DNA from: Asterionella formosa
Taxonomy: Eukaryota
Assembly: GCA_002256025.1 (NCBI GenBank)
Contig: NKIB01000435.1
Coordinates: 1 to 32,564 of the forward strand
Direction of reading: 5' to 3'
DNA length: 32,564 nt
Positions 3,243 to 32,446 of this stretch are shown here, in pieces; position 1 is the first letter of the stretch, and each line of letters starts with the position of its first letter. The position numbers and the translations under genes are program-made. Below the pieces are notes generated by a model, which did no database searches, was not told the origin of the DNA, and worked only from the letters and a program-made list of their open reading frames with translations.

Positions 3243-3835
3243 TCTTTCGCTAGACGGTATCAACGACTATGCGACGACGAATCGTTCACGTGAACAGACT
3301 TCCGTGGTCTATGTTGACAGTCTATACACGGTAATTTGAGATCACTTCGTAAACAAGAGTCGGAATGGAAGTGAAGACACCTTTGGAGGGAATCCTAGAA
3401 TGAACCCGGAAAGTTTAGTATCGACACTCTACGTCGCTGAAGGTTATGCTGTGAAACAAAATTTTGTCACACGACAAAGCAACGAGTCACTAACGCGTTA
3501 ATACCCGCTATTATCTCAGACAGAGGAGCGCGAGACCAACCGATTGCGGTACGTACCTGTACCCGTAATATAATTTCAACTGGTCATAATCTCTACCGGG
3601 TACCAGGGTACCTTCAACGTGTTCGTCTTGATGATTAACAGTTTGAGCATTTTCCCAAATACCGGTACTGGACGATTGTCCGGTGGAGAGGTACCTGGTA
3701 CCATACCAGGGTACACAGAATCCTGTTACTTTGTCCGGTAGAACTGATCTGATGGTTGGCTTGCGGCACATTGGTATAATCGTCCCAAGAAATTAATCTT
3801 CTGACCTCTGCCCCAGGATAGCAATAACCCTTCAT

Positions 3836-5191
3836 ATGACTTCGTCCTCTGTTGGAACTGACGAATTGACCTTGCTAGGATCATTCATTGGGAAAACTGG
3901 ACCACGATCTAAGCGACAAGGAAAGTCACGCGAGCGCCAAATTTTTGAGAAAACGCTGAAGTCGCTTGAAGTCATTGAAACCAACGATGAAATCATACGA
4001 ACAATATTAGAAGACATTGAAGACCAATCCTTTTTCGGGGATTTAATAAATAACACTCCGCATTATCCATCCCAGTATAAGACGACTTTGAGGTGCTACT
4101 GGAGAGACACCAAACGATTTGCCGTTCAGTGTACCGAATATGTCCTACAAAATGCTAAGGCATGGTACGAATCTCCGAAACAACAAGCTCGAAAATATGC
4201 ACGTAATATTCGGCGATACCAGGGACGCTGGATATGGGCCTCCTTGTTGGCACTGTACGCATTGACCAAGTTTACTTCGCACACTTCGCCTAGCGATCAC
4301 TATGTAGCCGCTGAAAAACGTGTCCAAGTCACAGCAAGTGATTCTCTAGCCATGCGAACGTATCACGATGATCCTTTGGAGACAATGAAGACAATTCAAC
4401 AATATGCATCAGCGAATCTACAACAACTACCAAACTCTCGAACTACTGACTCAAAAAATGTTCAGCCCTTCGTGGATTCACAAAACTCCTTCGACTCCGA
4501 AACGAATGCCAGATTGCCGGAAAGTCAGCAGCAAAATGACCCAGCATTCACCATCAACACTGCAAAGTTAGCAGTGAAGACATCCTCTTCCAAGATCCAT
4601 GCTCCCATTGTTCAGCAAAATGCCCCTCAACGTGTTGAAAGTGAAAATCCGACAATGCTTAAATCGATTCTTGGAGATTATAAAATAGACGAGACAACAC
4701 AACAAGAGGAGCAACCAAGTGTTGAGCGTCCATCAACTATTGATACCTTTCAAGAAGGGAAGCAAAGTGAAGAAAACCCAACACTCCAAATGATTCCAAC
4801 AAATTCCTACAAGCAGGAATTATTGCCGAGAAACACGATTCAAGAATATCTGACCAGAGAAACCAATTCTGACAATTCAGTATCCTACAAGAATCAGGTG
4901 CCAACAGAGTCAGCTAACGAAAAATACAGTACTAGCTTAACAGAAACAGATGCCAAAAAATTCAATCGTACTGACACAAACAGACTGGAAGTGTTTGAAG
5001 TGGATCTTGGAATCGTTGAAACCAGGAACAGAACAGAATTGGGAAACTCCACAAAAACTCAACAAATGCATGAAGTTTGGCGACCACGGCATCAAGGAGA
5101 GTCCAAGATACCACCAGCTATACCAGAGGATCAACTCCATCCCCGTTATCGACCACTGTCTGCAGATGAATTCTCAAAAGGTGGCTTGTAG
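3836..5191 (+). CDS. Hypothetical protein, 451 aa, probable single-pass membrane protein with a long disordered Q/N/T/E-rich C-terminus
   Basis: Long ATG-initiated ORF. A hydrophobic segment (WIWASLLALYALTKF) is preceded by basic residues. No recognisable domain. Confidence 0.65.
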   Translation: MTSSSVGTDELTLLGSFIGKTGPRSKRQGKSRERQIFEKTLKSLEVIETNDEIIRTILEDIEDQSFFGDLINNTPHYPSQYKTTLRCYWRDTKRFAVQCTEYVLQNAKAWYESPKQQARKYARNIRRYQGRWIWASLLALYALTKFTSHTSPSDHYVAAEKRVQVTASDSLAMRTYHDDPLETMKTIQQYASANLQQLPNSRTTDSKNVQPFVDSQNSFDSETNARLPESQQQNDPAFTINTAKLAVKTSSSKIHAPIVQQNAPQRVESENPTMLKSILGDYKIDETTQQEEQPSVERPSTIDTFQEGKQSEENPTLQMIPTNSYKQELLPRNTIQEYLTRETNSDNSVSYKNQVPTESANEKYSTSLTETDAKKFNRTDTNRLEVFEVDLGIVETRNRTELGNSTKTQQMHEVWRPRHQGESKIPPAIPEDQLHPRYRPLSADEFSKGGL

Positions 5192-7943: not shown

Positions 7944-9108
7944 GAGCGAGGCTGCTGTCTCGTCATCCAACTACATACTGACTGGTATCTATACCGGTAT
8001 ATACTAAGATATAGTGTCGGTTTGACGACATGTTGATTGTGGTGAAAAATATCACATACAGTACTAAGGGGTCAGGGATTTCGCTATAAACAAGCCTACG
8101 GGGACTGAACTCATGGACCCCAGAAATTGCACCCAGCCATCTCATATGACATTCGAGTCGCTATCGGAGTTCTGGTTCGTTTCACGTTAGTCTTCTCATC
8201 TGAAATGCCTATGTCCCCCTTGTTAACATTACAGGACTTGTGCTTCCTAGCGAATCCCCTGTGAAGACTGGTCCAGATCGTTCTCACACTCGGATTATTT
8301 CTTATTTTTTGGATGTATACAGAAGTATCATTTCTTATTTCAGGCACTCCTCCGTCCTCCGACTACATCTACCAGTCGACGCAAACCATAAATTGCTAAG
8401 ATTGTCACTAATAAGGAGAAATTCTTATCAATATTAATAACCAAAGAAGCGACATGATGGAATGGACATAAAAATACGATTAAATGGTCAATTACTCGAT
8501 CACGAAGTACGTCACGACATGTACGTCACGATATGTACCTATGCAAGTAAAGAATACCATCGAAAACAACGCTACCTGATACCAGGTACCAAGAATGTTG
8601 GAAAAGTCCAGTCATTTTCTGACGACATAAACTGGTTTCTTCGAAGTTATAACTCGAATCTAAATTGCAAATGTCATCGCAATATCTCATGTCGTAGGCT
8701 CATACCAATAACTGACCGGGGCTACCTGGGACCTACACTAATCATTGCTTTATCGTAGATTTCCCATTATCTATGTAGCTACTGGTAAACAAGAAGGCCG
8801 ATTGATATATCATGCAGGTAATACGATAGCGGTATATTAAATAAAAGGAACTCAGGCACACCACTCGAGGACATTCTAATATTATGTCCCGATACAACTG
8901 TACATCATCATTACATGTAATATGTTGCAGGTCTTGATATATTCCAACACGTGTTGATCAATATTTAAACGCCACACCAATCTCTGTAGTTCATAAATAG
9001 GAATATATTCGTTCTTCCTCTGTTGTGGACATATTAACATAAATCAGAGGCATGATATTTCATCGTCCTCAATAACTTCCAGCACCATCCATCTCAGTTC
9101 CAACCACC

Positions 9109-10623
9109 ATGTCGCGGTCATCAGAATGGGGTAACGAATACCCAACAATCGACAGTTCATCCTTTCAAAAGTTCAAAGAAAAATTGAGAACCGCCAAAGT
9201 AATGTCGAACAATGGAGTAAAACAGATGATGGCCCAAGAATTCCTAAAGCAGGAACGACACCGTTGTCAGATAGAACTAGGGCATGATGCCGACCATTTA
9301 CAATGCGAAATGTCAGAGGATGATAATAAGGGAATCCGGGGTGCCGTTCGCCACTCGCATCGGTATAGCTCTAGTTCGTCCACTTCCCAGCACCGCCATG
9401 GATCTGGCGCACAAGTAGGCCGCGTTCCGCAGAGAAGTTCATTCACATATGGTGCAAATTTTGGAGACGTTAACACACGTAGACGATCGCTCCAACTTGG
9501 TCTTTTCGATCATGGAGAACCCATCGCTCGACAAAATGACCTACAACGGCGGCCAGGCCTTCAAGGCGAGGATTTGAGAATGAGATTGTCTGAAAGTTTT
9601 CAGTTAGAAAATTCGGCAGACCTCACGCCTCATATAAGTCAAGGAAATGCTTCACAACTCGGCTTGTCGAATGGGCCATTGACAGGAATGTGTTCGCTTG
9701 GTTCCTCCACTCATACTATGAAAGGACGTGCTTCACGAGGCAGTCAGTCTAGTGGGTCACAGGAGACTAATCAAAAGGGATCTTTTACTTTCCCTTATAT
9801 TTCCGCATTGTTTGATTCCGAGGATGACAAGGGGCATCCTCTAGGAGGCAGCTTTGATTTTATGGGGTTGGTTGGTTCTTCCACTCCTACTATGCAAAGA
9901 CGTGCTTCAATGCGAGGTTCTACTAGTGGATCATTGACTAACGAGATCTATTCTTTAAGAGACCTTGATATTTCCGCCATGTTTGATTCTGAAGATAAAG
10001 AACAGGCGCAGCGTCAGGCAATTGTAAAACAACCTTGCACATCAAATGGTGCTCAGTCCAACTCAATTTCTGACTTTTTCCAAAATGATGCCAAGGAAGG
10101 GAGAGCAAAAGCTAATTTGGAAGACTCGCGTAGATCCCTTCCTAAGAAGCTGTTTACGGCATTTCAATCTTTGGGTGGGAGTGTTCCTACAGCAATAACG
10201 GCGGACGACTATGAATACTTATTTGCGAACATGAACTTGGTTAAACGCGACGAGAAGGTCTCCCACGAAAATGTTCAAGGACAACGACATGAACAAGGGC
10301 ATTTCATTTCAAAATCCGCCTCTGCACGTGACACCAATCGCAATAAAGTTGAGACACTCGATTTTAATAATGTTCGATCTGGAGGAATGCTACTAGTTGA
10401 ATTTCCTTCCGGTGATTCTGTGCATAGCGATGATGACAATTCTGAAACAGGCCTGAATGTCTCCGAAAGTGGATGCTGCAAAAATGATCGCCTTTTTCCA
10501 AACCATGACGTAGTGGAATTCGAGAAACCTTCGAACTGGGTATATGCCGAGGATGATAGCAGTAATGATTCGGACGACATTGAGCAACATGAAAATGAAG
10601 CTGCTATTGAGCTTGGACTGTAA
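9109..10623 (+). CDS. Hypothetical serine-rich, largely disordered protein, 504 aa, with an internal ~57-58 aa duplication
   Basis: Long uninterrupted ORF with a good start context (ccaccATG), several RRxS/RxxS motifs and an acidic C-terminus. No recognisable domain. Confidence 0.72.
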   Translation: MSRSSEWGNEYPTIDSSSFQKFKEKLRTAKVMSNNGVKQMMAQEFLKQERHRCQIELGHDADHLQCEMSEDDNKGIRGAVRHSHRYSSSSSTSQHRHGSGAQVGRVPQRSSFTYGANFGDVNTRRRSLQLGLFDHGEPIARQNDLQRRPGLQGEDLRMRLSESFQLENSADLTPHISQGNASQLGLSNGPLTGMCSLGSSTHTMKGRASRGSQSSGSQETNQKGSFTFPYISALFDSEDDKGHPLGGSFDFMGLVGSSTPTMQRRASMRGSTSGSLTNEIYSLRDLDISAMFDSEDKEQAQRQAIVKQPCTSNGAQSNSISDFFQNDAKEGRAKANLEDSRRSLPKKLFTAFQSLGGSVPTAITADDYEYLFANMNLVKRDEKVSHENVQGQRHEQGHFISKSASARDTNRNKVETLDFNNVRSGGMLLVEFPSGDSVHSDDDNSETGLNVSESGCCKNDRLFPNHDVVEFEKPSNWVYAEDDSSNDSDDIEQHENEAAIELGL

Positions 10624-18204: not shown

Positions 18205-20309
18205 ATGATTCAACTAGCTCCCTTAGCCATTCCACTCCTTTCTAACATCAACTTCGTCCCTCTATGGATAATCCTCCCCTTTGTCTTCGTTGTTCCCTTT
18301 TTCTTATGGTTGACAACTTGGCCGGGCAACAAGAAACACAGCACTCCCATACGTGCCAGTACCTTCCGCCCAGACGCTGTGCCTGTGAACGTTGATACCA
18401 TCGTTGTTGGCTCTGGGTCAGGTGGATGTGCATGTGCCAATCTTTTGGCCCAGTCTGGTCAACGAGTTCTCCTACTGGAGCAGCATCCCGATCGAACAGG
18501 AGGTTGCACACATTCTTTCCGAGAGAATGGGTGTGAGTGGGACACTGGTCTTCACTATACGTCCAAGGCAATGAGTGACAAAACTTGTCGGCCAGGTGCT
18601 ATTATGGATTTCATGACTCAAGGAAAGCAAGAATGGCGTCGCTTGGATGATCCCTACGACGAAGTTGTCTTTCCACAAGATGATCAAGTCAAGCAAGGTT
18701 TGCCGAACAAGCAATCATATCCTTTTGTCAGTGGCATGAACCATACCGTGGAGGGTATCATGGCCAACATTGATCCGATGAATGAAGAGTTGAAAAAGAG
18801 GTGTGTTTTGTAGTTGCGCAACTAATATTTGCATGGTATTGTGAGATGTAGTTCACCGTGCTAATGTTTCCTTCATCTTGAAGAGTTTACGCGTACATGA
18901 ATGTGTGCGAGGAAGTCAATGCAGGTTTTACGGCCTTGGGGATTTCTCGCGTCCTACCCTCATGGCTACAATTTCTCGTCAAGAAACGAGTTGATCGCTT
19001 GATGACCATCGCTAGCATGACTGTACGAAACGTACAGTATGCTATTTTCAACCTTGGCTACTCTTCGGAGCAGCTCATCAACGAAGGGTGTCCCGAAGCT
19101 CCCGATGGGCCTGAACCTGACCTTGCTATTCGTCGCCTCAAGGCTGTCTTGACGCATCCTATTGGAGATTATGCTGTCCAACCCAGAGATGCCACCATGG
19201 CAGCTCATGGAGTAACTATGTCTCATTACCGAGACGGTGCTGCCTACACAGTTGGAGCCACCCAGAACATTTCAATTCGCAGTTCAAGCATGGTCCGTGA
19301 GTTTGGTGGCGAAGTCCTTGTCGATTGTACGGTTAGAGAAATAATCATTGAAAATGGCCGCGCAGTTGGAGTCCGTGTCAGCAACACATCGACTTTGGCC
19401 AAGTGTGAGTCAGATGGGGGCATAGTATCTGTGCCTGTCACAGAGATTCGAGCCAAGAACATTGTCTGGGCATCAGGAATCTACAACCTCTACACAAAGA
19501 TACTGCCACAGGATCTACAGATAGTCAAGGACTTCAATGACCCTTCCAAGCGAACTGTGCGCCAAAGCAATGGCCACGTTTTTCTCTTTTGCAAACTTCG
19601 AGGTGATGCAACTGAACTTGGTCTACCTACTCACAACCTTTGGTACTTCAACGGATACAACCTTGATGAAGCATTTGATGATTATTTTGCTAATCCCAGG
19701 GAGGTCCGTCCACCAACATGCTACATTGGGTTTCCATGCACTAAGGATTCTACCTGGAAGAAACGTTTTCCAGGAGTGAGTAATTGTGTCCTCATTTCCG
19801 ATGGGCTTTGGGAGTGGTTTCAGGAGTGGGCAGACAAGCCAGTGCATAACCGTGGTGAACGCTATGAGGAATTCAAAATCCAACTCAGCAAGCACCTACT
19901 TGATATTCTATACGAGACAGTTCCACAAGCCAAGGGTAAAGTGGAATTCCATATGCTTGGTACTCCCTTGTCAGAAACAACTTACCTGTCATCCTTCCAT
20001 GGTGGCTCTTATGGTACCAAATGCACGACATCTATGTTTGACGCCATAAACAGAAAGTGGACTACAACTCCACACACTGCTATTCCTGGTCTCTATCTTG
20101 CTGGTTCTGATGCTTACCTTCCTGCAGTTTGTGGTGCCATGTATGGTGGTTGCTTTGGTGCCAGTGCTGTCCTTGGACATCTTGGCACTTTGCGTCTCAC
20201 TGCTGCTGTCCTTGGTCACCTTGCAACAACTCTTAAAGAAGAGAACCCAAAAATGTCCTGGCCTAGTGCATATCTTTTGGCAATGAATAGGTTTGTGAGT
20301 GATGACTGA
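18205..20309 (+). CDS. FAD-dependent oxidoreductase of the retinol saturase / phytoene desaturase / CRTISO family, 2 exons, ~673 aa
   Basis: N-terminal hydrophobic anchor, dinucleotide-binding motif DTIVVGSGSGG...LAQSGQRVLLLEQH...GGCTHSFRENGCEWDTGLHY, and C-terminal TPHTAIPGLYLAGSD. Exon 1 is 18205-18800, the intron is 18801-18883 (GTGTGT...ctaat...AAG, 83 nt) and exon 2 is 18884-20309, joining ...LKKR|VYAYMNV... Confidence 0.87.
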
Positions 20310-25257: not shown

Positions 25258-26223
25258 TTAGTTAATCGAGACATATTCCTCCTGTCTCGCAGATTTTAAT
25301 GGAAATTGAAAGCCTTGCACTTGAGCACGGCCAGTTTCAAGTTGGTCTTGCATAGATCGAGAGGCCGTTCGATCATTCATTGCTTGGACGGAACGAAGGT
25401 TATTTCTGCCAATTTCTGTCCCTGCAAACATATTTTGTGTATTTTCTCCAAGTGCTGACAGCTCGGATTTTCTTGTCATAATGTTATTGAATGAGCGCGT
25501 ATTTTGGTCGTTTTCGAAGTTGTTTTTCATGTCGGTTCTCAATTTGTTATTTGCCGATTGGGTTCCTTGATGGTTTTGGTATTCCATTATGTCATTATTG
25601 TTGTTTGTTCCAAAGCCCGCTTGATGTGCGTTCCCATAACCTTTGGACGTGGCAGTTGTCGATCGTAAAATAGTATTGGATGCAGGCCCGAATTGATTCC
25701 CTGTCTTTCCTGAAGTTAACGTTTGAATCATTCCATTTGTGTTAGTTGAGGTCGCATCATCATGATTCGTGTTCAATCTCATTCCATTAGAGGCCAGTTC
25801 CGGCAAAGGCGCATATTCTTGATATTTCCTCGCTGGCCGCGTCATTCTGGGCTCGTACCCCGTCAGCGCAATCGATTCCGAAGTTGACTGGAACGCACTT
25901 AATTGCTGTTTATATGCCTTCCACCACTTCACGGTGTGTCGTTGTTCCCATGCATGAAGTATAAAGTACATGAGAAACATTCCGATGAATATGTATAGGC
26001 AGGGACGCGGCAATCTTCGTCGTTTGATAGGAAAACGTGAGTCAGTCTCAGGTTGCAAATAGGTGGCTAGCGGTCGGTCGACTAGTGAGTCAACAAAAGT
26101 GGTATCACCGTTCTTAATAAGCTTTCGCAGAAATGCAGTATCCCCAGATGAATCGGTCGTTTCCTCGTCAAAGTGCAAACGCCGAGTACTTCGTGCCTTT
26201 GCATATCTCCGGCTGTCTCTCAT
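25258..26223 (-). CDS. Hypothetical type II membrane protein, ~321 aa, with an N/Q/T-rich disordered C-terminus
   Basis: Long ORF whose first ATG is at 26223 (MRDSRR). A basic cluster (KRRRLPRP) directly precedes the hydrophobic segment CLYIFIGMFLMYFILHAW. Confidence 0.65.
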   Translation of the reverse strand: MRDSRRYAKARSTRRLHFDEETTDSSGDTAFLRKLIKNGDTTFVDSLVDRPLATYLQPETDSRFPIKRRRLPRPCLYIFIGMFLMYFILHAWEQRHTVKWWKAYKQQLSAFQSTSESIALTGYEPRMTRPARKYQEYAPLPELASNGMRLNTNHDDATSTNTNGMIQTLTSGKTGNQFGPASNTILRSTTATSKGYGNAHQAGFGTNNNNDIMEYQNHQGTQSANNKLRTDMKNNFENDQNTRSFNNIMTRKSELSALGENTQNMFAGTEIGRNNLRSVQAMNDRTASRSMQDQLETGRAQVQGFQFPLKSARQEEYVSIN

Positions 26224-27242
26224 GATGTAAGGTGCACGAGTGTGGACTTTAACTTGTGACTTGAGGTGGGAAGCAAGCAATGCACTCGGATGTGTTTGCT
26301 TCGAATTGCCGAACTTTAGCAACAATCATGATATTATGCTGCTCCGGAGGGTGATATTTGTTCTTGTTTCATATTTAGATTCTTAAGAATGCCTGCGTTT
26401 TCCGTGCTCCCAACTATGATCTGCACGCACAGGATGCACAAGTGATGCATCGCGACGAGGCAGAACAAATCTTTATCAGGGAATGTCTGGGAGAAAACGG
26501 CTTGTGCTACCTGGTACCAGTATAACGAAACTCTGCTACCTGCATGTTCCGGTCATTTTGCTGAAATTGATAACGTGACGCAGGACAGGCGTTGTTTATA
26601 TAGAAAACGTCATCAATCCAGTGTTTAAAATCGTATGTGCGCACATACCGGTATATGCATGGTGACCATCACTAGGTTTATGCTGATTTTATTCTTCAAG
26701 CAAAACATGAAGAAAACACAACAATGACTGGAGCAATAGAGGGGCAGCCCAAAGCAAAAGTAAGCAAAGTAGGCAAGTCTTGCTTACACTGCTTTATTCT
26801 CTCCAAACTCAAAATCTTTCTCCTTTTCCAGCTGAAGTGACAATGAAAATAACCTATCTTAATCAATGGTTTCAAAAGTCGTTGGGATTGGAAATTCGTA
26901 ACTGCCAGCATCATCATAGCAGCAACAAGATATAGCTCTATTATCAACTACCAGTATGTATTTACAGTACATAAGCATGTTATGTATGCATGTATACTAT
27001 GCACTATATTGACTGTTAACCAATGAAGATAATAGCATTACTGGTCATAATGGTATGTATACTGCATCAACTGTCAACTAGGAGTACATATACTGGTAGT
27101 ATAATGAAGACCATAGTATTCCGATACCTGGTACTTATTGGTAAGCAAACAATTTTGAAATCTTATCACCATCACGCTTCCATCATTCCCACCTCACAAT
27201 GATTCCATTTTGCGGTGTAGGCCGATACAAGCAATCAAATCA

Positions 27243-28488: not shown

Positions 28489-29289
28489 TGATTGATCATA
28501 CAGAAAAACTCATCGATCAATCACTTTTTTTGCCATTGATCATACACATATAAATGATAGATCACACACATATCATAAATATGATTACATAAATATTTTC
28601 ATATTATCAAACAGATCTTTTATGTTGCAATATATTGCATCAATAAGTGAACCGTCTCTATTATACATTGGTTATATGGTTCTATCAATTGATAATATAA
28701 CTTGATTGAAATGATGATTCTACTTTGTTGTTGTTTACGCTTTAAGTAGCAATCTGTATTTTATTCTTGATAAATTTGCTTTCTTTGGTTCTACCCTTCA
28801 ATCCAATGCCTTTGTTTTCCATTGAACGCCTTTGATACTAAGCATTGCAACCGAAATGACAAAACAAGATCAAGTATTGATTCATGATGTTGTAGTAAAC
28901 ATAACTTTCTATTCACTGATTCTGGCTGGTAGAACAGGGAAAGATAGAATGGTGTGTGAGCAAAAGAGTTGGACTATACATTCAGCATCCCCCTTAAATT
29001 TGCATCGCTTTTCACATTTTCGAAAATCCATTCGTCATTTTTTCTGAAAGCGATATTATGGGCAAGTAAGCTTCAATGATTCGAACAGAATATGACCAAC
29101 ATTTCTATTTTGGATTACCTTGTCACCAAATTTTTAGCTGCTTTCCCTTAATTGTCTGTATCAAACACTTTTAAAAGGTGCGATCTAAGTTTTTAAAATT
29201 TTTCCGATCAAATCAAATATTTTTTGTGATCATACTTCTTGATTAAAAGTTGATTGATCATACAGAAAAAGTTATTGATCAAACACTTT
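28489..29289. repeat. Dispersed ~39-bp direct repeat (28489-28527 and 29251-29289) within TGATCA-rich clusters
   Basis: TGATTGATCATACAGAAAAA is identical (20 bp) at 28489 and 29251, and continues as ctcatcgatcaatcacttt versus gttattgatcaaacacttt. Confidence 0.75.
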
Positions 29290-29669
29290 AAAAAGTTTCC
29301 ATAACAATTTGTCACTGTTGGTAAGTGGCAAAAGCGCTGATACAGTTAAACCAGATGAATCTGATAATGATGACATGAATTCAAATAGTATACGCGATGC
29401 AAAGACATCCATTCCTATGAAACCCAAAAAAGTAGAAAATTCTCGGTAGAGAAAGAAAAGTGTGGGATTTGGCGCATTTCCGGAAGTACTAAACAGTCAA
29501 AAACTCAACCAAAACGATCAGATGGGACAGAATAATTCTGCCTATTACACCCAGACAGCGAACACGATAAACAGCGGTTAAGAACCTTGTAAATTCGGAA
29601 AGTCGAAATGGTGATTATTAGCTACACTGTCCCAGCAAAATTAATTTTATGGGGAAACGTCAATTACTC

Positions 29670-30918
29670 AGATGGAACCCAAACACTCCTTCCATATGTA
29701 TGCTTCTTGAAAAGTACAAAGAGCATGCCAGCCCATGATCTCATGTTTTTTGCTACAGGTGATAACATTTGAAATGAAAATACAGGATTAAGCACGCGTT
29801 GTTGAGCATAACAACATACTTTCCATGGCGTTTGTGGTCCATGGTGCTTTACCACTGGCTACTAACAGAAAATGTATGAGTACGAAAGAAACCGTTAAAG
29901 CCATGGAAATCACTGATTATTATATTGCGTTACCATCACAAAATCAAAGGAAATTGATTGGTTAAGATATTCATTTAGGTACAGAGACATAGTAACGGGT
30001 GGTAAAGTGTTCACATAATTTAGAATATACTTCAACATGTGCATAGTAGTTGCTTCTGAATTCATAAAATGTTTTTTCTTTTCATATGTTTTATAGCCCA
30101 CTCGTATTCCCCTCTTTAGAGGCAAGTATTTCATTCTGCTACCTTCCGACAAGACCTGTGCTTCTCTAGCTTTGTTAGCGTAGGTGAGTCCCCAACCACC
30201 TTTCGCGAAAGGTGATCGTCTTAGCCGCAGCGTTAGGGGAAACTCCGACCGCCTGGGAAGGCGCGACAAGCTGCTTGTAGGGGGGCAACCCATTATTTCT
30301 TGTACACCAGGCAAGACCGTGCGGGACGGTAGGAGTGTGGGAGTCGAACCCAACAATTGCTCCTAAAAATTGCGAGAATCGAACCTCACAACCTCAGATC
30401 AAAGGCAACGTCCTAAACCACTACTAAGCCACTCCCTCTTGAATTCATTATATACTTATCAATCTTCTCTTTATTTTTTTGAGGAAGTGATGAAAAATAT
30501 GAACTGTCATCATCCACTGATTCTTCCGACGATTTCCATAGTTTCTTAACATTGTTGTAAAGTCTATCATGTTGGATGCCATCCAGAAGGACAGAATGAT
30601 GGCTCACTCTCAGCATGCAAAGCACGTCCGAATTTGTTGTCGAATTTCAAGGTTTCTTTATTACCTATCATGCCAATGGAATGATTCTACAGGATGTTGA
30701 ACCATTTCACCAAAATTCATCAATTTGGTAGTACTTAATTTTAGAGATAACTCAAATTCAGGATTGAACTCCAATTACTGCAATTTTTTCAAGAATGAAT
30801 TTTTGAGAACTTATACCAGCATTGCTGCATTATCAATTCCGAAAGCTGTATGGTCAGGAAATGATCATCCCTTTTCATCTCCACTAAATTTCTTTCCTGA
30901 GAATGTATCCCAACCATG
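29670..30918 (-). pseudogene. Decayed coding-like sequence, possibly transposon-derived, interrupted by the SINE-like insertion
   Basis: ORF fragments on either side of the insertion join in frame at the TSD (...KIDKYI-MNS-EATTMHMLKY...). Flanking frames read as protein-like with scattered TGA/TAA stops. Boundaries are approximate and the product is unknown. Confidence 0.4.
30066..30439 (-). mobile_element. tRNA-derived SINE-like element, 374 bp, with a 9-bp target-site duplication
   Basis: The minus strand begins AGAGGGAG-TGGCTTAGTAGTGG (A box-like), then GGTTCGATTCTC (B box-like) and a second GGTTCGACTCCC. A GC-rich structured body follows, ending in an A-rich tail (ATAAAACATATGAAAAGAAAAAAC). 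It is flanked by the direct repeat tgaattcat at 30057-30065 and 30440-30448. Confidence 0.72.
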
Positions 30919-31729
30919 ATCGATTGCTCATTAACTGTGGCTCACTTTGTTTCCCCATACACACTATGTCGCCATTGTAGCGTAATTGAAGTAATACACT
31001 CCAGAAATTTCGGAATTCTTCGGTAAGCTATCATGAACTAATTCCAGACTGGTATCAATTTCTGGAGTCAACTTTAATTTAATTTTGGTTTCACTTTGGA
31101 AGGGGGAGCTCTAAAACGACCCGGAAAATACAAATGTTTGACTACTGCGAAGGTTGGATGTGTTCCATATTGAATGCGCATGTATACTGACAACCAGTAC
31201 CTGGTACCGGTACCATTGGTACCTGGTTCCGAGGATGCACCGGTACACACCATAGTATGTACGAAAATTTTCTACTACTTTTCGTTTCACTTTGATGACC
31301 GTTGCATGTGTGGTATTTGCTGTAGTAATATTCATTTATTCTTACAGGATATGTACAGGGATTTTATCCTCTTATAATGTCACGGTAGTTAGAAATCAAC
31401 TCGGTGAGTAGTGTGAGTGCGGAATACAATTTACGATTTTAATATTCTGTTGACAATCTTAGTAGTTTCACTTGTGTGTTTTCTAAAAGAGTGAGCTTAA
31501 ACTAAATGTAATTTTGAAATGTAGTTTCGATTGAAACATGGCAATTCCTACATGTTTCTGAAATGAATTTGTTCTTTGTTCCTTCTTGGAGGCGAGGTTC
31601 TTCGTAGTTCCTACAGCTGTAGCGAAGTAGATTAGTACATCCTCTTCCTTGCAACATATATATCCATCTAGCCTAGATAGATTCTAGGACATAGATGTTC
31701 CTCTACTGAGATACTTTTCAGGTATCTGC

Positions 31730-31788
31730 AATATGATGATTGGATTGTTCCTCAATCCTTTAATAGGATGATTTGATTGTTCTTCAAT
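31730..31788. repeat. Two-unit tandem repeat, period 32 bp
   Basis: aatatgatgattggattgttcctcaat (31730) versus aataggatgatttgattgttcttcaat (31762). Confidence 0.65.
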
Positions 31789-32446
31789 GCTTTAGACAGA
31801 ACTGATATGTCTCTCCAATCATTCATAGTTTAGGGTTTACCAAGTTTGTTTGGTAAACATAGGGAAAATTGATAGAATTCGCCCTTCAACATTGTTCTTT
31901 ATCAAATGTCTGAAGGTTATAAAGCTTGGTATTGAATTGTGCGTTGTTCCATCAAACACAGTGACTAGTAGGGAAATGTTGTCTTCACGCAAAGTGGAGA
32001 CCTAACTGGGAATCAGGAATCAAGAATTCTTCTGTGTTTCAACTACGGTGTATCATCAGAGCTTCGATGTCGTACGCCTCCTAGAAAAAACCAGGCATCC
32101 ACCTATTTGAGCTTTGTAGTAGATTTCTGATCAGGGAATCACCCTGTGGCTGGTACCTGGTCCTGATACCGGTACTGGAAACTCGATGCCATCGTTCTTA
32201 AAGCAGGATCGATCGTGAGTCAAGAAATTCAAATGTCCGACAATGATCTTTTCATATAAAATGAAAGAAGGCGAATACGTCCAAACAAAGGGCTTTTCTT
32301 TGGAGCACATGAAAATCCATTCATTGGCTCTTAATAAATATCATAAAAACCTCCATATATATATATTGAAAGAACTCTATGAACAAGTACGACAACATAC
32401 CGGCATATACATAGCTCCTGTTCCTTGTTTTCACATATACCGTATA

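What the first reader, a model, noticed from the sequence alone, without database searches (positions are those of the whole stretch)
30057..30448. Candidate new tRNA-derived SINE with TSD and A-rich tail in a diatom-like genome
Seen: a GC-rich 374-bp island lies in AT-rich DNA. On the minus strand it starts with Pol III A-box-like (TGGCTTAGTAGTGG) and B-box-like (GGTTCGATTCTC) motifs at tRNA spacing and ends in an A-rich tail. It is bracketed exactly by a 9-bp direct repeat (ATGAATTCA on the minus strand). Established: this layout is the signature of SINE2 elements inserted by target-primed reverse transcription. Inference: it is a retroposed family member that depends on a LINE partner. To my knowledge SINEs are poorly characterised in diatoms, so the family may be undescribed.
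Basis: partly seen in the sequence, partly recalled or inferred. Interest (0 to 1): 0.8.

Follow-up and report, generated by a model that had tools for sequence, protein, structure and literature searches.

The report
High-copy tRNA-like SINE in a diatom
The 374-base island is one copy of a short, non-coding mobile element with a tRNA-like front end that is repeated roughly a thousand times in a freshwater diatom genome; such elements are ordinary in plants and animals but barely described in diatoms.

Summary
A 374-bp block (30066-30439, minus strand; GC 0.49 against 0.35-0.37 in the flanks) sits between an exact 9-bp direct repeat. It begins with an A-box-like motif and two exact B-box motifs.

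The window is diatom nuclear DNA. The block is single-copy in the window but highly repeated in the source organism. In one public run 9,236 assembled pieces match it, and their summed depth is about 500-1,700 times that of the unique flank. Matching pieces also occur in a second study, in a separately labelled organism and in a poly(A) metatranscriptome.

Family copies share a 5' end within about 3 nt of the proposed boundary and a common 3' end, and then continue into unrelated flanks. This is seen in 11 distinct 5' flanks and 6 distinct 3' flanks. One other copy appears to carry its own target-site duplication.

- The A-rich stretch is private to this copy. The family ends in CTAAC plus a run of T, like RTE-dependent Au-like SINEs of plants.
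- The head is only tRNA-like and falls below the thresholds of the tRNA detectors.
- No LINE partner could be sought.

Verdict: a real SINE-type retroposon family, probably undescribed. It is a new member of a known kind and of moderate interest.

The parts
30440..30448 (.). Upstream (5', in element sense) copy of the 9-bp target-site duplication: TGAATTCAT on +, ATGAATTCA on -.
   Evidence: (D3); chance estimate.
30066..30439 (-). The whole SINE-like insert (374 bp) in this copy.
30331..30436 (-). tRNA-like head. A 7-bp acceptor-like stem (GGGAGTG / CACTCCT) encloses a degenerate D arm, an anticodon-arm region, two T-arm/B-box motifs and a linker.
   Evidence: tRNA-Sec model, 20.2 bits, E 0.4, full model length, 28-nt insert. 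ARAGORN finds something only at relaxed thresholds, with inconsistent isotypes.
30418..30431 (-). A-box-like motif TGGCTTAGTAGTGG.
   Evidence: Translated copies elsewhere read EWLSG / AQLVEH at this place.
30374..30385 (-). B-box motif 1, GGTTCGATTCTC. The family majority has C at 30375 on the minus strand.
   Evidence: majority variant 30375 A>G on +, table 3.
30339..30350 (-). B-box motif 2, GGTTCGACTCCC, followed by the 3' half of the acceptor-like stem.
30085..30330 (-). tRNA-unrelated, GC-rich body shared by the family. It includes an 18-nt perfect palindrome at 30197-30214.
   Evidence: depth, pieces; 92% to L001; I16.
30070..30084 (-). Copy-specific A-rich stretch (TGAAAAGAAAAAACA) standing where other copies read CTAAC.
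   Evidence: (loose ends at 30085).
30066..30069 (-). Terminal T run (TTTT), the family's type of 3' end. It abuts the 3' TSD.
30057..30065 (.). Downstream (3') copy of the 9-bp target-site duplication.
   Evidence: D3. The junction is bridged by contigs in two runs (table 8, records 2 and 25).

Best explanation
The block is one somewhat decayed copy of a tRNA-derived SINE family of a freshwater diatom.

Proposed mechanism:
[quoted passage not shown] Transcription ends at the terminal T run.
- The RNA is copied into DNA at a staggered nick in AT-rich target DNA by the reverse transcriptase and endonuclease of an autonomous non-LTR element. This leaves a target-site duplication of variable length.
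- The T-run 3' end and the 9-13 bp duplications fit best with an RTE-type partner, as for plant Au-like SINEs.

Shown here:
- The family is dispersed and of high copy number.
- Copies share 5' and 3' ends and continue into unrelated flanks.
- This copy has a TSD, and one other copy probably has one.
- The head is tRNA-like and carries B-box motifs.
- No coding capacity was recognised.
- The element occurs inside longer contigs of a poly(A) RNA library (DNA carry-over not excluded).

Inferred, not shown: Pol III transcription, reverse transcription, and the identity of the partner.
For: (1) Copy number.
- At 80% likeness, 9,236 contigs of run X1, 1,662 of X2, 48 of X12 (a separately labelled organism) and 28 of X17 (a poly(A) metatranscriptome) lie on 29500-31000.
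- In X1 the summed depth is 538,374 to 1,611,679 per bin across 30112-30417. The unique bin 30010-30060 has 965, and unique flank contigs have 947-987 (tables 1, 2, 8).
- The tool warns that this is not a copy number. I read it only as an order of magnitude of about 10^3.

(2) Shared ends.
- Loose ends pile up at 30085 (29 records in X1, 19 in X2) and at 30423 (128 in X1, 41 in X2).
- Beyond 30423 the consensus continues AGCCAYTCCCT and then becomes AT-rich with low agreement. One X12 contig reads AGCCACTCCATCT and then unlike sequence, so the 5' end falls at 30436-30439.
- Beyond 30085 all four sources read (minus strand) CTAAC plus 3-7 T and then diverge.

(3) An independent metagenome contig, L001, carries a copy at 92% identity over 30399-30085, with unrelated flanks.

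(4) ORF-peptides from other assemblies.
- 64 short peptides all map onto the element by tblastn (64 of 64). Eight long repetitive proteins were dropped beforehand.
- 61 of 64 stop at or below 30452, and 60 of 64 stop at or above 30080.
- 12 peptides have 20 or more unaligned residues upstream of the head. These represent 11 mutually unrelated flanks, because P0137 and P0140 share one.
- 6 peptides have 20 or more unaligned residues after the 3' end, and none resembles another.

(5) TSD.
- The 9-bp repeat is exact, with 0.0027 chance hits expected.
- In P0138 the residues I-N-S-T stand just before the head and again directly after the T-run codons. This would be a 12-13 nt duplication at a second locus (inferred from amino acids).

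(6) Head.
- There are two exact B boxes against 0.00 expected.
- A full-length alignment to a tRNA-clan model scores below threshold.
- Other copies encode E-W-L-S-G or A-Q-L-V-E-H at the D-arm place. By my recollection this is what a canonical tRNA A box and D arm would encode.

(7) No terminal inverted repeats were found. There is no Rfam family at gathering score and no unusual fold stability (z +1.14).

(8) T-stretch 3' ends and 7-15 bp TSDs are described for RTE-dependent SINEs (PMC6007223, passages read).
Against: - The head fails the tRNA detectors. ARAGORN finds nothing at default settings, and relaxed runs give His, Glu or Pro inconsistently. Rfam gives 20.2 bits against a gathering score of 47.
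- The A-box-like motif alone is not significant.
- Only one TSD was seen at the nucleotide level. No TSD could be found for L001.
- L001 carries the same 13-mer, ATGAATTCAAGAG (the window's 9-mer plus the first 4 nt of the element), 126 nt upstream of its core match. The rest of that interval does not align significantly to the head (4 of 500 shuffles reach the score). This is unexplained. It could mean that the 9-mer is not purely target DNA, or that there is a target preference.
- This copy's 3' end differs from the family over 15 nt.
- No LINE or reverse transcriptase was seen in the window: 24 ORFs were scanned and none matched an RT or EN family. None could be sought in the genome.
- Contigs cannot show Pol III transcripts. 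The RNA contigs run on into unlike sequence (share 0.98), so they show at most read-through inside longer RNAs.
Confidence: 0.75

Rival explanations
1. It is a non-autonomous DNA transposon (MITE-like, for example Mutator-derived, which makes 9-bp duplications) that happens to carry a tRNA-like segment.
For: The TSD of this copy is exactly 9 bp. MuDR and MITE elements are listed among the repeats of the diatom P. tricornutum (PMC5859163, Table 2 passage).
Against: No terminal inverted repeat joins the two ends (inverted list). The ends are asymmetric: a tRNA-like head at one end and a T run at the other. The second candidate TSD is 12-13 nt, not 9, and DDE transposases make duplications of fixed length (established knowledge).
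Confidence: 0.06
2. It is a piece of, or a derivative carried by, a larger or different retroelement (a solo LTR, or a Penelope-, DIRS- or LTR-dependent short element). In that case it is not a LINE-dependent SINE.
For: LTR elements dominate the one diatom repeat table I read (P. tricornutum; PMC5859163, Table 2 passage); that non-LTR elements are scarce in diatoms generally is my recollection. Both flanks of this copy are themselves moderately repeated in X1: 29704-30009 and 30469-30621 have about 10-45 times the unique depth (table 2). The partner is unknown.
Against: Depth drops 20-fold or more at both element ends. The 11 upstream and 6 downstream flanks seen in peptides are unrelated to each other. 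The left repeat stops before 30010, so it does not reach the insertion site. The ends are not TG...CA.
Confidence: 0.1
3. It is a multi-copy family of functional Pol III-transcribed non-coding RNA genes or tRNA pseudogenes, spread by DNA duplication rather than by retroposition.
For: It has internal promoter-like boxes and a terminal T run that would act as a Pol III terminator. The element is present in RNA-library contigs.
Against: Thousands of pieces are 80-99% alike, with changes dominated by transitions (table 1). There is a TSD. Flanks are unrelated. There is no Rfam family and no excess fold stability. Copies carry deletions and rearrangements (table 5; L001).
Confidence: 0.04

Closest known systems
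tRNA-derived SINEs in general (Repbase class SINE2)
   Same: The element is short and no protein family was recognised in it. It has a tRNA-like head with A and B boxes at tRNA spacing, a tRNA-unrelated body, a simple-sequence 3' end, dispersed high copy number, and TSDs.
   Different: The head has a second B box and T arm about 35 nt after the first, and it is too degenerate for the tRNA detectors. An extra B' box 20 bp downstream of the B box is mentioned for a fungal SINE (PMC5063351, passage). The parent tRNA is not identified.
Au-like SINEs of flowering plants and other RTE-dependent SINEs (PMC6007223, passages read)
   Same: Both are tRNA-derived SINEs whose copies end in a short stretch of T rather than poly(A). 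TSDs fall in the 7-15 bp range given there for RTE-type insertion. Here they are 9 bp and probably 12-13 bp, with T runs of 3-7.
   Different: No sequence relationship was tested because no Au or RTE sequence is held here. The TSD of this copy starts with A, not T, and no T stretch lies about 10 nt upstream of it. The host is a diatom and no RTE partner is known.
'Putative SINE' annotations in diatom genomes: P. tricornutum, 13 copies covering 1,454 bp (PMC5859163); Cyclotella cryptica (PMC7466962); Pleurosigma pacificum, SINE GC 45.8% (PMC12803021)
   Same: They are SINE-class repeats reported in diatoms. In Pleurosigma the SINEs are GC-richer than the other repeat classes given there (Copia 39.7%, Gypsy 38.7%), as this element is GC-richer than its flanks.
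   Different: In the passages I read, those are outputs of automatic classifiers, without a described head, tail, TSDs or high copy number. This family is of the order of 10^3 copies with defined ends. Their sequences sit in supplements I did not see, so identity with this family is not excluded.
infSINEs of the oomycete Phytophthora infestans
   Same: They are SINE families in another stramenopile.
   Different: I know them only from a citing sentence ('fifteen families of infSINEs', PMC5063351). The original paper was not read and no sequences were compared.

Membership tests
tRNA-derived SINE (SINE2) | Short (under about 700 bp), non-coding and non-autonomous | tested here: met
   The insert is 374 bp. 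Its flank-overlapping ORF 30413-30646 gave no Pfam hit; the ORFs lying mainly inside it were not scanned. Translated copies elsewhere use different frames and break off.
tRNA-derived SINE (SINE2) | 5' head derived from a tRNA, with internal Pol III A and B boxes | tested here: inconclusive
   There are two exact B boxes against 0.00 expected. The A-box-like motif is not significant alone. A full-length tRNA-clan alignment scores 20.2 bits, below the 47-bit gathering score. ARAGORN finds nothing at default settings. Other copies encode AQLVEH or EWLSG at the D-arm place; that these match a canonical D arm is my recollection.
tRNA-derived SINE (SINE2) | Many dispersed copies with common ends and unrelated flanks | tested here: met
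   9,236, 1,662, 48 and 28 contigs in four runs, with loose ends at 30085 and 30423. L001; 64 of 64 peptides map, with 11 distinct 5' flanks and 6 distinct 3' flanks.
tRNA-derived SINE (SINE2) | Each copy flanked by its own target-site duplication, of variable length | tested here: inconclusive
   This copy has an exact 9-bp TSD. P0138 has I-N-S-T on both sides, which would be 12-13 nt, but this is at peptide level only. No TSD was found for L001. No other copy could be examined at both ends.
tRNA-derived SINE (SINE2) | 3' end of simple sequence, and/or a 3' region shared with a partner LINE | tested here: inconclusive
   A T run of 3-7 after CTAAC is seen in X1, X2, X12 and L001, and T-rich codons follow the 3' end in peptides. 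Sharing with a LINE is not testable because no genome is held.
tRNA-derived SINE (SINE2) | Transcription by RNA polymerase III | not testable with these tools
   Only contigs of a poly(A) metatranscriptome were available. 0.98 of what was laid runs on into unlike sequence.
Au-like / RTE-dependent SINEs | 3'-terminal sequence shared with an RTE-clade LINE of the same genome | not testable with these tools
   No genome is held. None of the 24 window ORFs scanned matched an RT or EN family.
Au-like / RTE-dependent SINEs | Copies end in a stretch of T, and TSDs start with T about 10 nt downstream of a T stretch (PMC6007223) | tested here: inconclusive
   The T-run end is met. The TSD signature is not met in the single copy readable here: its TSD starts with A and has no upstream T stretch.
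MITE / non-autonomous DNA transposon | Terminal inverted repeats | tested here: not met
   No inverted repeat pairs the two ends of 30066-30439.
Known non-coding RNA families (Rfam 15) | Score at or above a family's gathering threshold | tested here: not met
   There are 0 matches over the whole window. Only sub-threshold matches appear in 29700-30800.

The most novel reading that the evidence does not exclude
This may be the first well-defined, high-copy SINE family of diatoms, of the order of 10^3 copies per genome. Under this reading it has a double-B-box tRNA-like head and a T-run tail of the RTE-dependent type, and it is shared by at least two separately labelled freshwater organisms. It may also prefer an AT(G/T)AATTC-like target: the window's TSD is ATGAATTCA, the same 9-mer stands before a 5' end fragment in L001, the candidate TSD of P0138 would encode ATTAATTC-like DNA, and the X1 flank consensus reads TTAATTAAA. 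If so, it would give diatom genomics a retroposon marker system and point to an active RTE-like partner in a group thought to be poor in non-LTR elements.
Probability: 0.45. Interest if true: 0.55.

Novelty: new member of a known kind. Interest (0 to 1): 0.42.

Why it matters
SINEs were long considered absent from most unicellular eukaryotes. In the diatom genome papers I read (passages only) they appear only as small 'putative SINE' classes from automatic pipelines.

A family with defined ends and about a thousand copies in a widespread freshwater diatom would have several uses and consequences:
- It would give a concrete consensus for repeat libraries. Otherwise such copies are annotated as spurious ORFs: 64 such peptides already sit in public protein collections.
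- It would offer presence/absence markers for strains and species.
- It would imply an active reverse-transcriptase partner that has yet to be found.
- It is also a practical warning. The element breaks short-read assemblies, because contigs end inside it (table 8).

It does not change what is known about how SINEs work.

Tried and rejected
- Own genome: none is held.
- Public contig collections: one metagenome-contig scan with a 21-nt core gave a single locus. Viral contigs and genome-contig scans with a 22-nt core gave 0 each.
- tRNA identity: ARAGORN with relaxed thresholds gave inconsistent isotypes (His, Glu with intron, Pro), so it is rejected as a way to name the parent tRNA. Its relaxed tmRNA calls are noise. 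My impression that the anticodon-arm region resembles tRNA-Lys(UUU) rests on recalled sequences only and is not used.
- RNA structure: the fold of the whole element is no more stable than shuffles (z +1.14; 92 of 100 shuffles fold at least as well). It is therefore not a strongly structured RNA.
- L001 head: a gap-tolerant alignment of L001 to the window beyond the core is not trustworthy. A stricter test found only the 13-mer.
- False positives in the profile search: 8 long proteins of 868-3,333 aa matched with 4-21 stretches each. I inspected two of the eight (P0154 and P0179). Both are tandem-repeat, adhesin-like proteins that share a short G-x-W-T-Y-T-L...Q-A-L-A-A-G-E-T-like motif with one reading frame of the element. 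I took all eight as chance matches and dropped them before the counts.
- Empty site: no joint skipping 30066-30439 is among the 15 joints shown of 52 (table 5). This is not evidence of absence.
- RNA runs: small shares of words (0.08-0.16) in six RNA runs are not used for habitat or expression. Only X17 was laid.
- Bacterial promoter and terminator scan: irrelevant to a eukaryote, and nothing was found.
- Introner or intron reading: no coding exons flank the insert. ORFs around it are short and have no Pfam hit, so I did not pursue this.
Full report
**What is in the sequence**

Read on the minus strand, 30439 to 30066 is a 374-bp block with GC 0.495. The 1-kb flanks have GC 0.354 and 0.370.

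The block is bracketed by an exact 9-bp direct repeat, ATGAATTCA on the minus strand, at 30448-30440 and 30065-30057 (family D3). In this window, exact 9-mer direct repeats at spacings of 200-600 occur at 6.4e-6 per site pair. About 0.0027 chance hits are therefore expected for the 7 x 60 site pairs that I would have accepted around the ends later defined by the family.

The block starts with AGAGGGAG and then TGGCTTAGTAGTGG (30431-30418). GGTTCGATTCTC follows 46 nt after the start of that motif (30385-30374), and a second GGTTCGACTCCC lies at 30350-30339.
- The B-box pattern GGTTCGANTCYC occurs only at these two places in 32.5 kb, with 0.00 expected in 100 shuffles.
- The A-box-like pattern is unique in the window but not significant alone (0.26 expected).

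The 3' end reads ...GGGCTATAAAACATA, then TGAAAAGAAAAAACA, then TTTT, then the repeat. It missed the second B box and the terminal T run.

**What kind of genome**

The ORFs of the window carry eukaryotic nuclear domains: E2F/DP, NUP50 with RanBP1, SET, HAD phosphatase and the TCP-1 chaperonin.

The CCT-beta fragment is 83-84% identical to diatom proteins, namely Cyclotella atomus, Attheya septentrionalis, Trieres chinensis and a Dactyliosolen-like MMETSP entry, and 82% to Seminavis robusta. Its best hit is 87%, to an unnamed MMETSP transcript. 'Diatom-like' is supported.

The last 6 kb of the window (about 26.5-32.5 kb) is AT-rich and poor in ORFs. The ten ORFs tested there have no Pfam match.

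**Is it a known RNA or a tRNA gene?**

No.
- ARAGORN finds no tRNA or tmRNA in the window.
- Rfam finds nothing at gathering score.
- With permissive thresholds, the head 30436-30331 aligns over the full length of the tRNA-Sec model (tRNA clan). The alignment shows a 7-bp acceptor stem, a good T arm and a 28-nt insertion. It scores only 20.2 bits against a gathering score of 47 (E 0.4).
- Relaxed ARAGORN runs give inconsistent isotypes.
- The whole element folds no better than shuffled sequence (z +1.14).

The head is tRNA-like, not a tRNA.

**Is it repeated?**

It is single-copy in the window, and no genome is held for the window. Public sequencing runs answer the question.

*Which runs hold it.* 20 runs of 16 studies hold part of the 392-base stretch. 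Six hold half or more of its sampled words. Their labels are algae, freshwater, lake-water, runoff and estuary metagenomes, plus one coded organism.

*Number of matching pieces.* Four runs were laid on 29500-31000 at 80% likeness.

| Run | Label | Contigs laid |
|---|---|---|
| X1 | algae metagenome | 9,236 |
| X2 | second study (no organism label on record) | 1,662 |
| X12 | 'organism A' | 48 |
| X17 | poly(A) metatranscriptome | 28 |

*Depth.* In X1 the unique flank contigs have depth 947-987, and the bin 30010-30060 sums to 965. The bins across 30112-30417 sum to between 538,374 and 1,611,679. The tool warns that summed contig depth is not a copy number. I take it only as an order of magnitude of about 10^3 copies.

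*Divergence.* In X1 the likeness to this copy is spread as 1,041 / 2,366 / 4,137 / 1,692 contigs in the classes 99+ / 95-99 / 90-95 / under 90%. Changes are biased to transitions (table 1).

*This copy against the majority.* At 12 or more listed sites the window copy differs from the family majority, among them 30136, 30145, 30165, 30170, 30255, 30264-5, 30293, 30303, 30362, 30365 and 30375. A further 160 sites are not shown. This is a somewhat decayed copy.

*Same insertion in two runs.* It is present in X1 and X2. Contigs bridge the 3' junction with 0 differences in 301 nt (record 2) and 5 differences in 727 nt (record 25).

**Where do family copies end?**

*5' end.* Loose ends pile up at 30423 (128 records in X1, 41 in X2, table 7). 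Past 30423 the consensus continues AGCCAYTCCCT. This is still the window's element sequence. It then turns AT-rich with low agreement. One X12 contig reads AGCCACTCCATCT followed by unlike sequence. The 5' end of the family therefore lies at 30436-30439, at the proposed boundary.

*3' end.* Loose ends also pile up at 30085 (29 records in X1, 19 in X2). Before 30085, all sources read (minus strand) ACATA-CTAAC followed by 3-7 T, and then diverge.

*An independent copy.* The only copy retrievable as DNA is metagenome contig L001.
- It aligns at 92% from 30399 to 30085 and continues CTAAC-TTTT and then unrelated sequence.
- It carries the family-majority base at nearly all the sites where the window copy is private (compare, table 3).

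*What this means for the tail.* The family's 3' end is CTAAC plus a T run. In the window copy, 15 A-rich bases stand in place of CTAAC. The copy still ends in TTTT next to the repeat. The 'A-rich tail' is thus a private feature of this copy, not a poly(A)-type tail.

**Independent support from translated copies**

Gene callers have turned copies of the element into short 'proteins' in public assemblies.
- A search with one frame of the element found 14 such peptides from ENA and JGI contigs, at 47-85% identity.
- A profile search of 1.84 billion representatives found 67 matches.
- Eight of these are long tandem-repeat proteins (868-3,333 aa, 4-21 matched stretches each). I inspected two. They share only a short motif by chance, and all eight were dropped.

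The remaining 64 peptides all map back on the element by tblastn (64 of 64).
- 61 of 64 end at or below 30452. The three exceptions are low-identity extensions of 37-49%.
- 60 of 64 end at or above 30080.
- Twelve peptides have 20 or more unaligned residues upstream of a head that starts at 30419-30449. All-against-all BLASTP shows that only one pair (P0137 and P0140) shares that flank, giving 11 distinct 5' flanks.
- Six peptides have 20 or more unaligned residues after the 3' end at 30083-30086. None resembles another.

At the head these copies read R-E-W-L-S-G-L, G-N-G-L-V-V-K-H or M-A-Q-L-V-E-H. By my recollection of tRNA sequences, A-Q-L-V-E-H is what a canonical D arm would encode. This is a lead, not a test.

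After A-I-K-H the copies read T-N-F-Y, T-I-F-H-F or I-I-L-L-F-I-F. These are T-rich codons and fit the CTAAC-T(n) end.

**A second target-site duplication?**

P0138 is a single ORF that runs through a whole copy. It reads ...P-I-N-S-T-M-I before the head and ...K-H-S-I-F then I-N-S-T-K-Q after the T-run codons.

I-N-S-T on both sides would be a 12-13 nt duplication, separated from the head by about 5 extra nucleotides. It is inferred from amino acids only. If real, TSD length varies between copies (9 against 12-13). That fits target-primed reverse transcription and argues against a DDE transposase.

**An unexplained point**

L001 carries ATGAATTCAAGAG 126 nt upstream of its core match. This is the window's 9-mer plus the first four bases of the element. 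The sequence between does not align significantly with the head. The 13-mer alone gives the score, and 4 of 500 shuffles reach it.

Three explanations are possible:
- chance;
- a rearranged copy or a chimeric metagenome contig;
- a target preference.

For the third, the candidate TSD of P0138 would encode ATTAATTC-like DNA, and the X1 consensus upstream of the head reads TTAATTAAA. This looks like a weak AT(G/T)AATTC-like preference. I could not test it.

**Mechanism**

The anatomy is that of a tRNA-derived SINE: internal Pol III boxes in a tRNA-like head, an unrelated body, a terminal T run that would also terminate Pol III, dispersed copies with unrelated flanks, TSDs and no terminal inverted repeats.

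SINEs that end in a stretch of T are described for plant Au-like families mobilised by RTE-clade LINEs, and RTE-type TSDs are mostly 7-15 bp (PMC6007223, passages read). I therefore propose an RTE-like partner.

This is inference. No genome could be searched, and none of the 24 window ORFs scanned matched a reverse-transcriptase or endonuclease family. The single readable TSD does not show the 'T at position 1, T stretch at -10' signature of that paper.

The element's presence in poly(A) metatranscriptome contigs that run on into unlike sequence (share 0.98) shows at most read-through inside longer RNAs (DNA in the library is not excluded). It does not show Pol III transcription.

**Rivals**

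- A MITE (for example Mutator-type, with a 9-bp TSD) is unlikely. There are no TIRs, the ends are asymmetric, and TSD length is probably variable.
- A fragment of a larger element is unlikely. Depth falls 20-fold or more at both ends, and flanks differ between copies. Both flanks of this copy are themselves moderately repeated (29704-30009 and 30469-30621, about 10-45 times unique depth in X1), so the copy lies among other repeats.
- A functional ncRNA gene family is unlikely given the decay, the rearrangements (table 5) and the lack of structural signal.

**Novelty**

Four full-text searches found no characterised diatom SINE family (for SINE with diatom terms; for SINE, Phytophthora and tRNA-related).

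What I read, as passages only:
- 13 'putative SINE' copies covering 1,454 bp in P. tricornutum, called the first in a diatom (PMC5859163).
- SINEs listed by the repeat annotation of Cyclotella cryptica, 'functional roles... poorly understood' (PMC7466962).
- A SINE class with GC 45.8% in Pleurosigma (PMC12803021).

Their supplements, which may hold sequences, were not seen. Dfam, Repbase and SINEBase are not available here. The library also misses most subscription journals.

I rate the element a new member of a known kind. It is probably undescribed, and novelty is unproven.

**Verdict**

- The SINE interpretation is largely supported. The corrections are a T-run tail rather than an A-rich one, a double B box, and a degenerate head.
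- The LINE partner, the parent tRNA and the target preference remain open.
- Interest is moderate.

Noticed in passing
window 30481-30548 (+): A candidate C/D-box snoRNA lies 33 nt from the element's 5' end on the opposite strand. It has a GTGATGA C box near its 5' end, a CTGA D box, and a GGAAG/CTTCC terminal stem. Three Rfam snoRNA families match it below threshold: SNORD41 at 22.9 bits (E 0.12), snoR79 and snoR14. It lies in a flank that is about 30-40 times repeated in run X1.
   Followed up: no
window 29704-30009 and 30469-30621: Both flanks of the insert are themselves moderately repeated in runs X1 and X2, with summed depth about 10-45 times that of unique contigs and 15-26 contigs with majority variants (tables 2 and 3). 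The left repeat stops before 30010, so it does not reach the insertion site. The nature of these repeats is unknown. ORFs there have no Pfam match.
   Followed up: partly
L001 427-439 against window 30448-30436: The 13-mer ATGAATTCAAGAG (the window's TSD plus the first 4 nt of the element) recurs in the metagenome copy, 126 nt upstream of its core match, with unrelated sequence further upstream. The possibilities are chance (4 of 500 shuffles), rearrangement, chimeric assembly or a target-site preference.
   Followed up: partly
P0136 (peptide from another assembly), residues 32-76 and 82-174: One ORF reads through two element copies in opposite orientation. Residues 32-76 map on the + frame at 30084-30212, and residues 82-174 map on the minus frame at 30383-30099. 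Copies therefore also occur as close inverted pairs.
   Followed up: no
window 30197-30214: An 18-nt perfect palindrome, CACCTTTCGCGAAAGGTG, lies in the most conserved part of the body. That bin has the highest summed depth. The surrounding 84 nt is identical between the window and L001. It may be a conserved hairpin of the family.
   Followed up: no
P0154, P0160, P0163, P0167, P0179, P0184, P0188, P0190: Long tandem-repeat proteins of 868-3,333 aa match one reading frame of the element through a short G-x-W-T-Y-T-L...Q-A-L-A-A-G-E-T-like motif, with 4-21 stretches each. I judged this a chance resemblance. It is a trap for profile searches seeded with translated repeats.
   Followed up: partly
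window 31730-31794 and 29245-29285: There are two short tandem duplications in the AT-rich, ORF-poor tail of the window: a 32-nt unit x 2.0 and a 21-nt unit x 1.9.
   Followed up: no
window 3797-5191 (+), 9076-10623 (+), 18882-20309 (+), 25258-26325 (-): Four long ORFs of 355-515 aa have no Pfam match even at E 0.1. They may be lineage-specific diatom genes.
   Followed up: no
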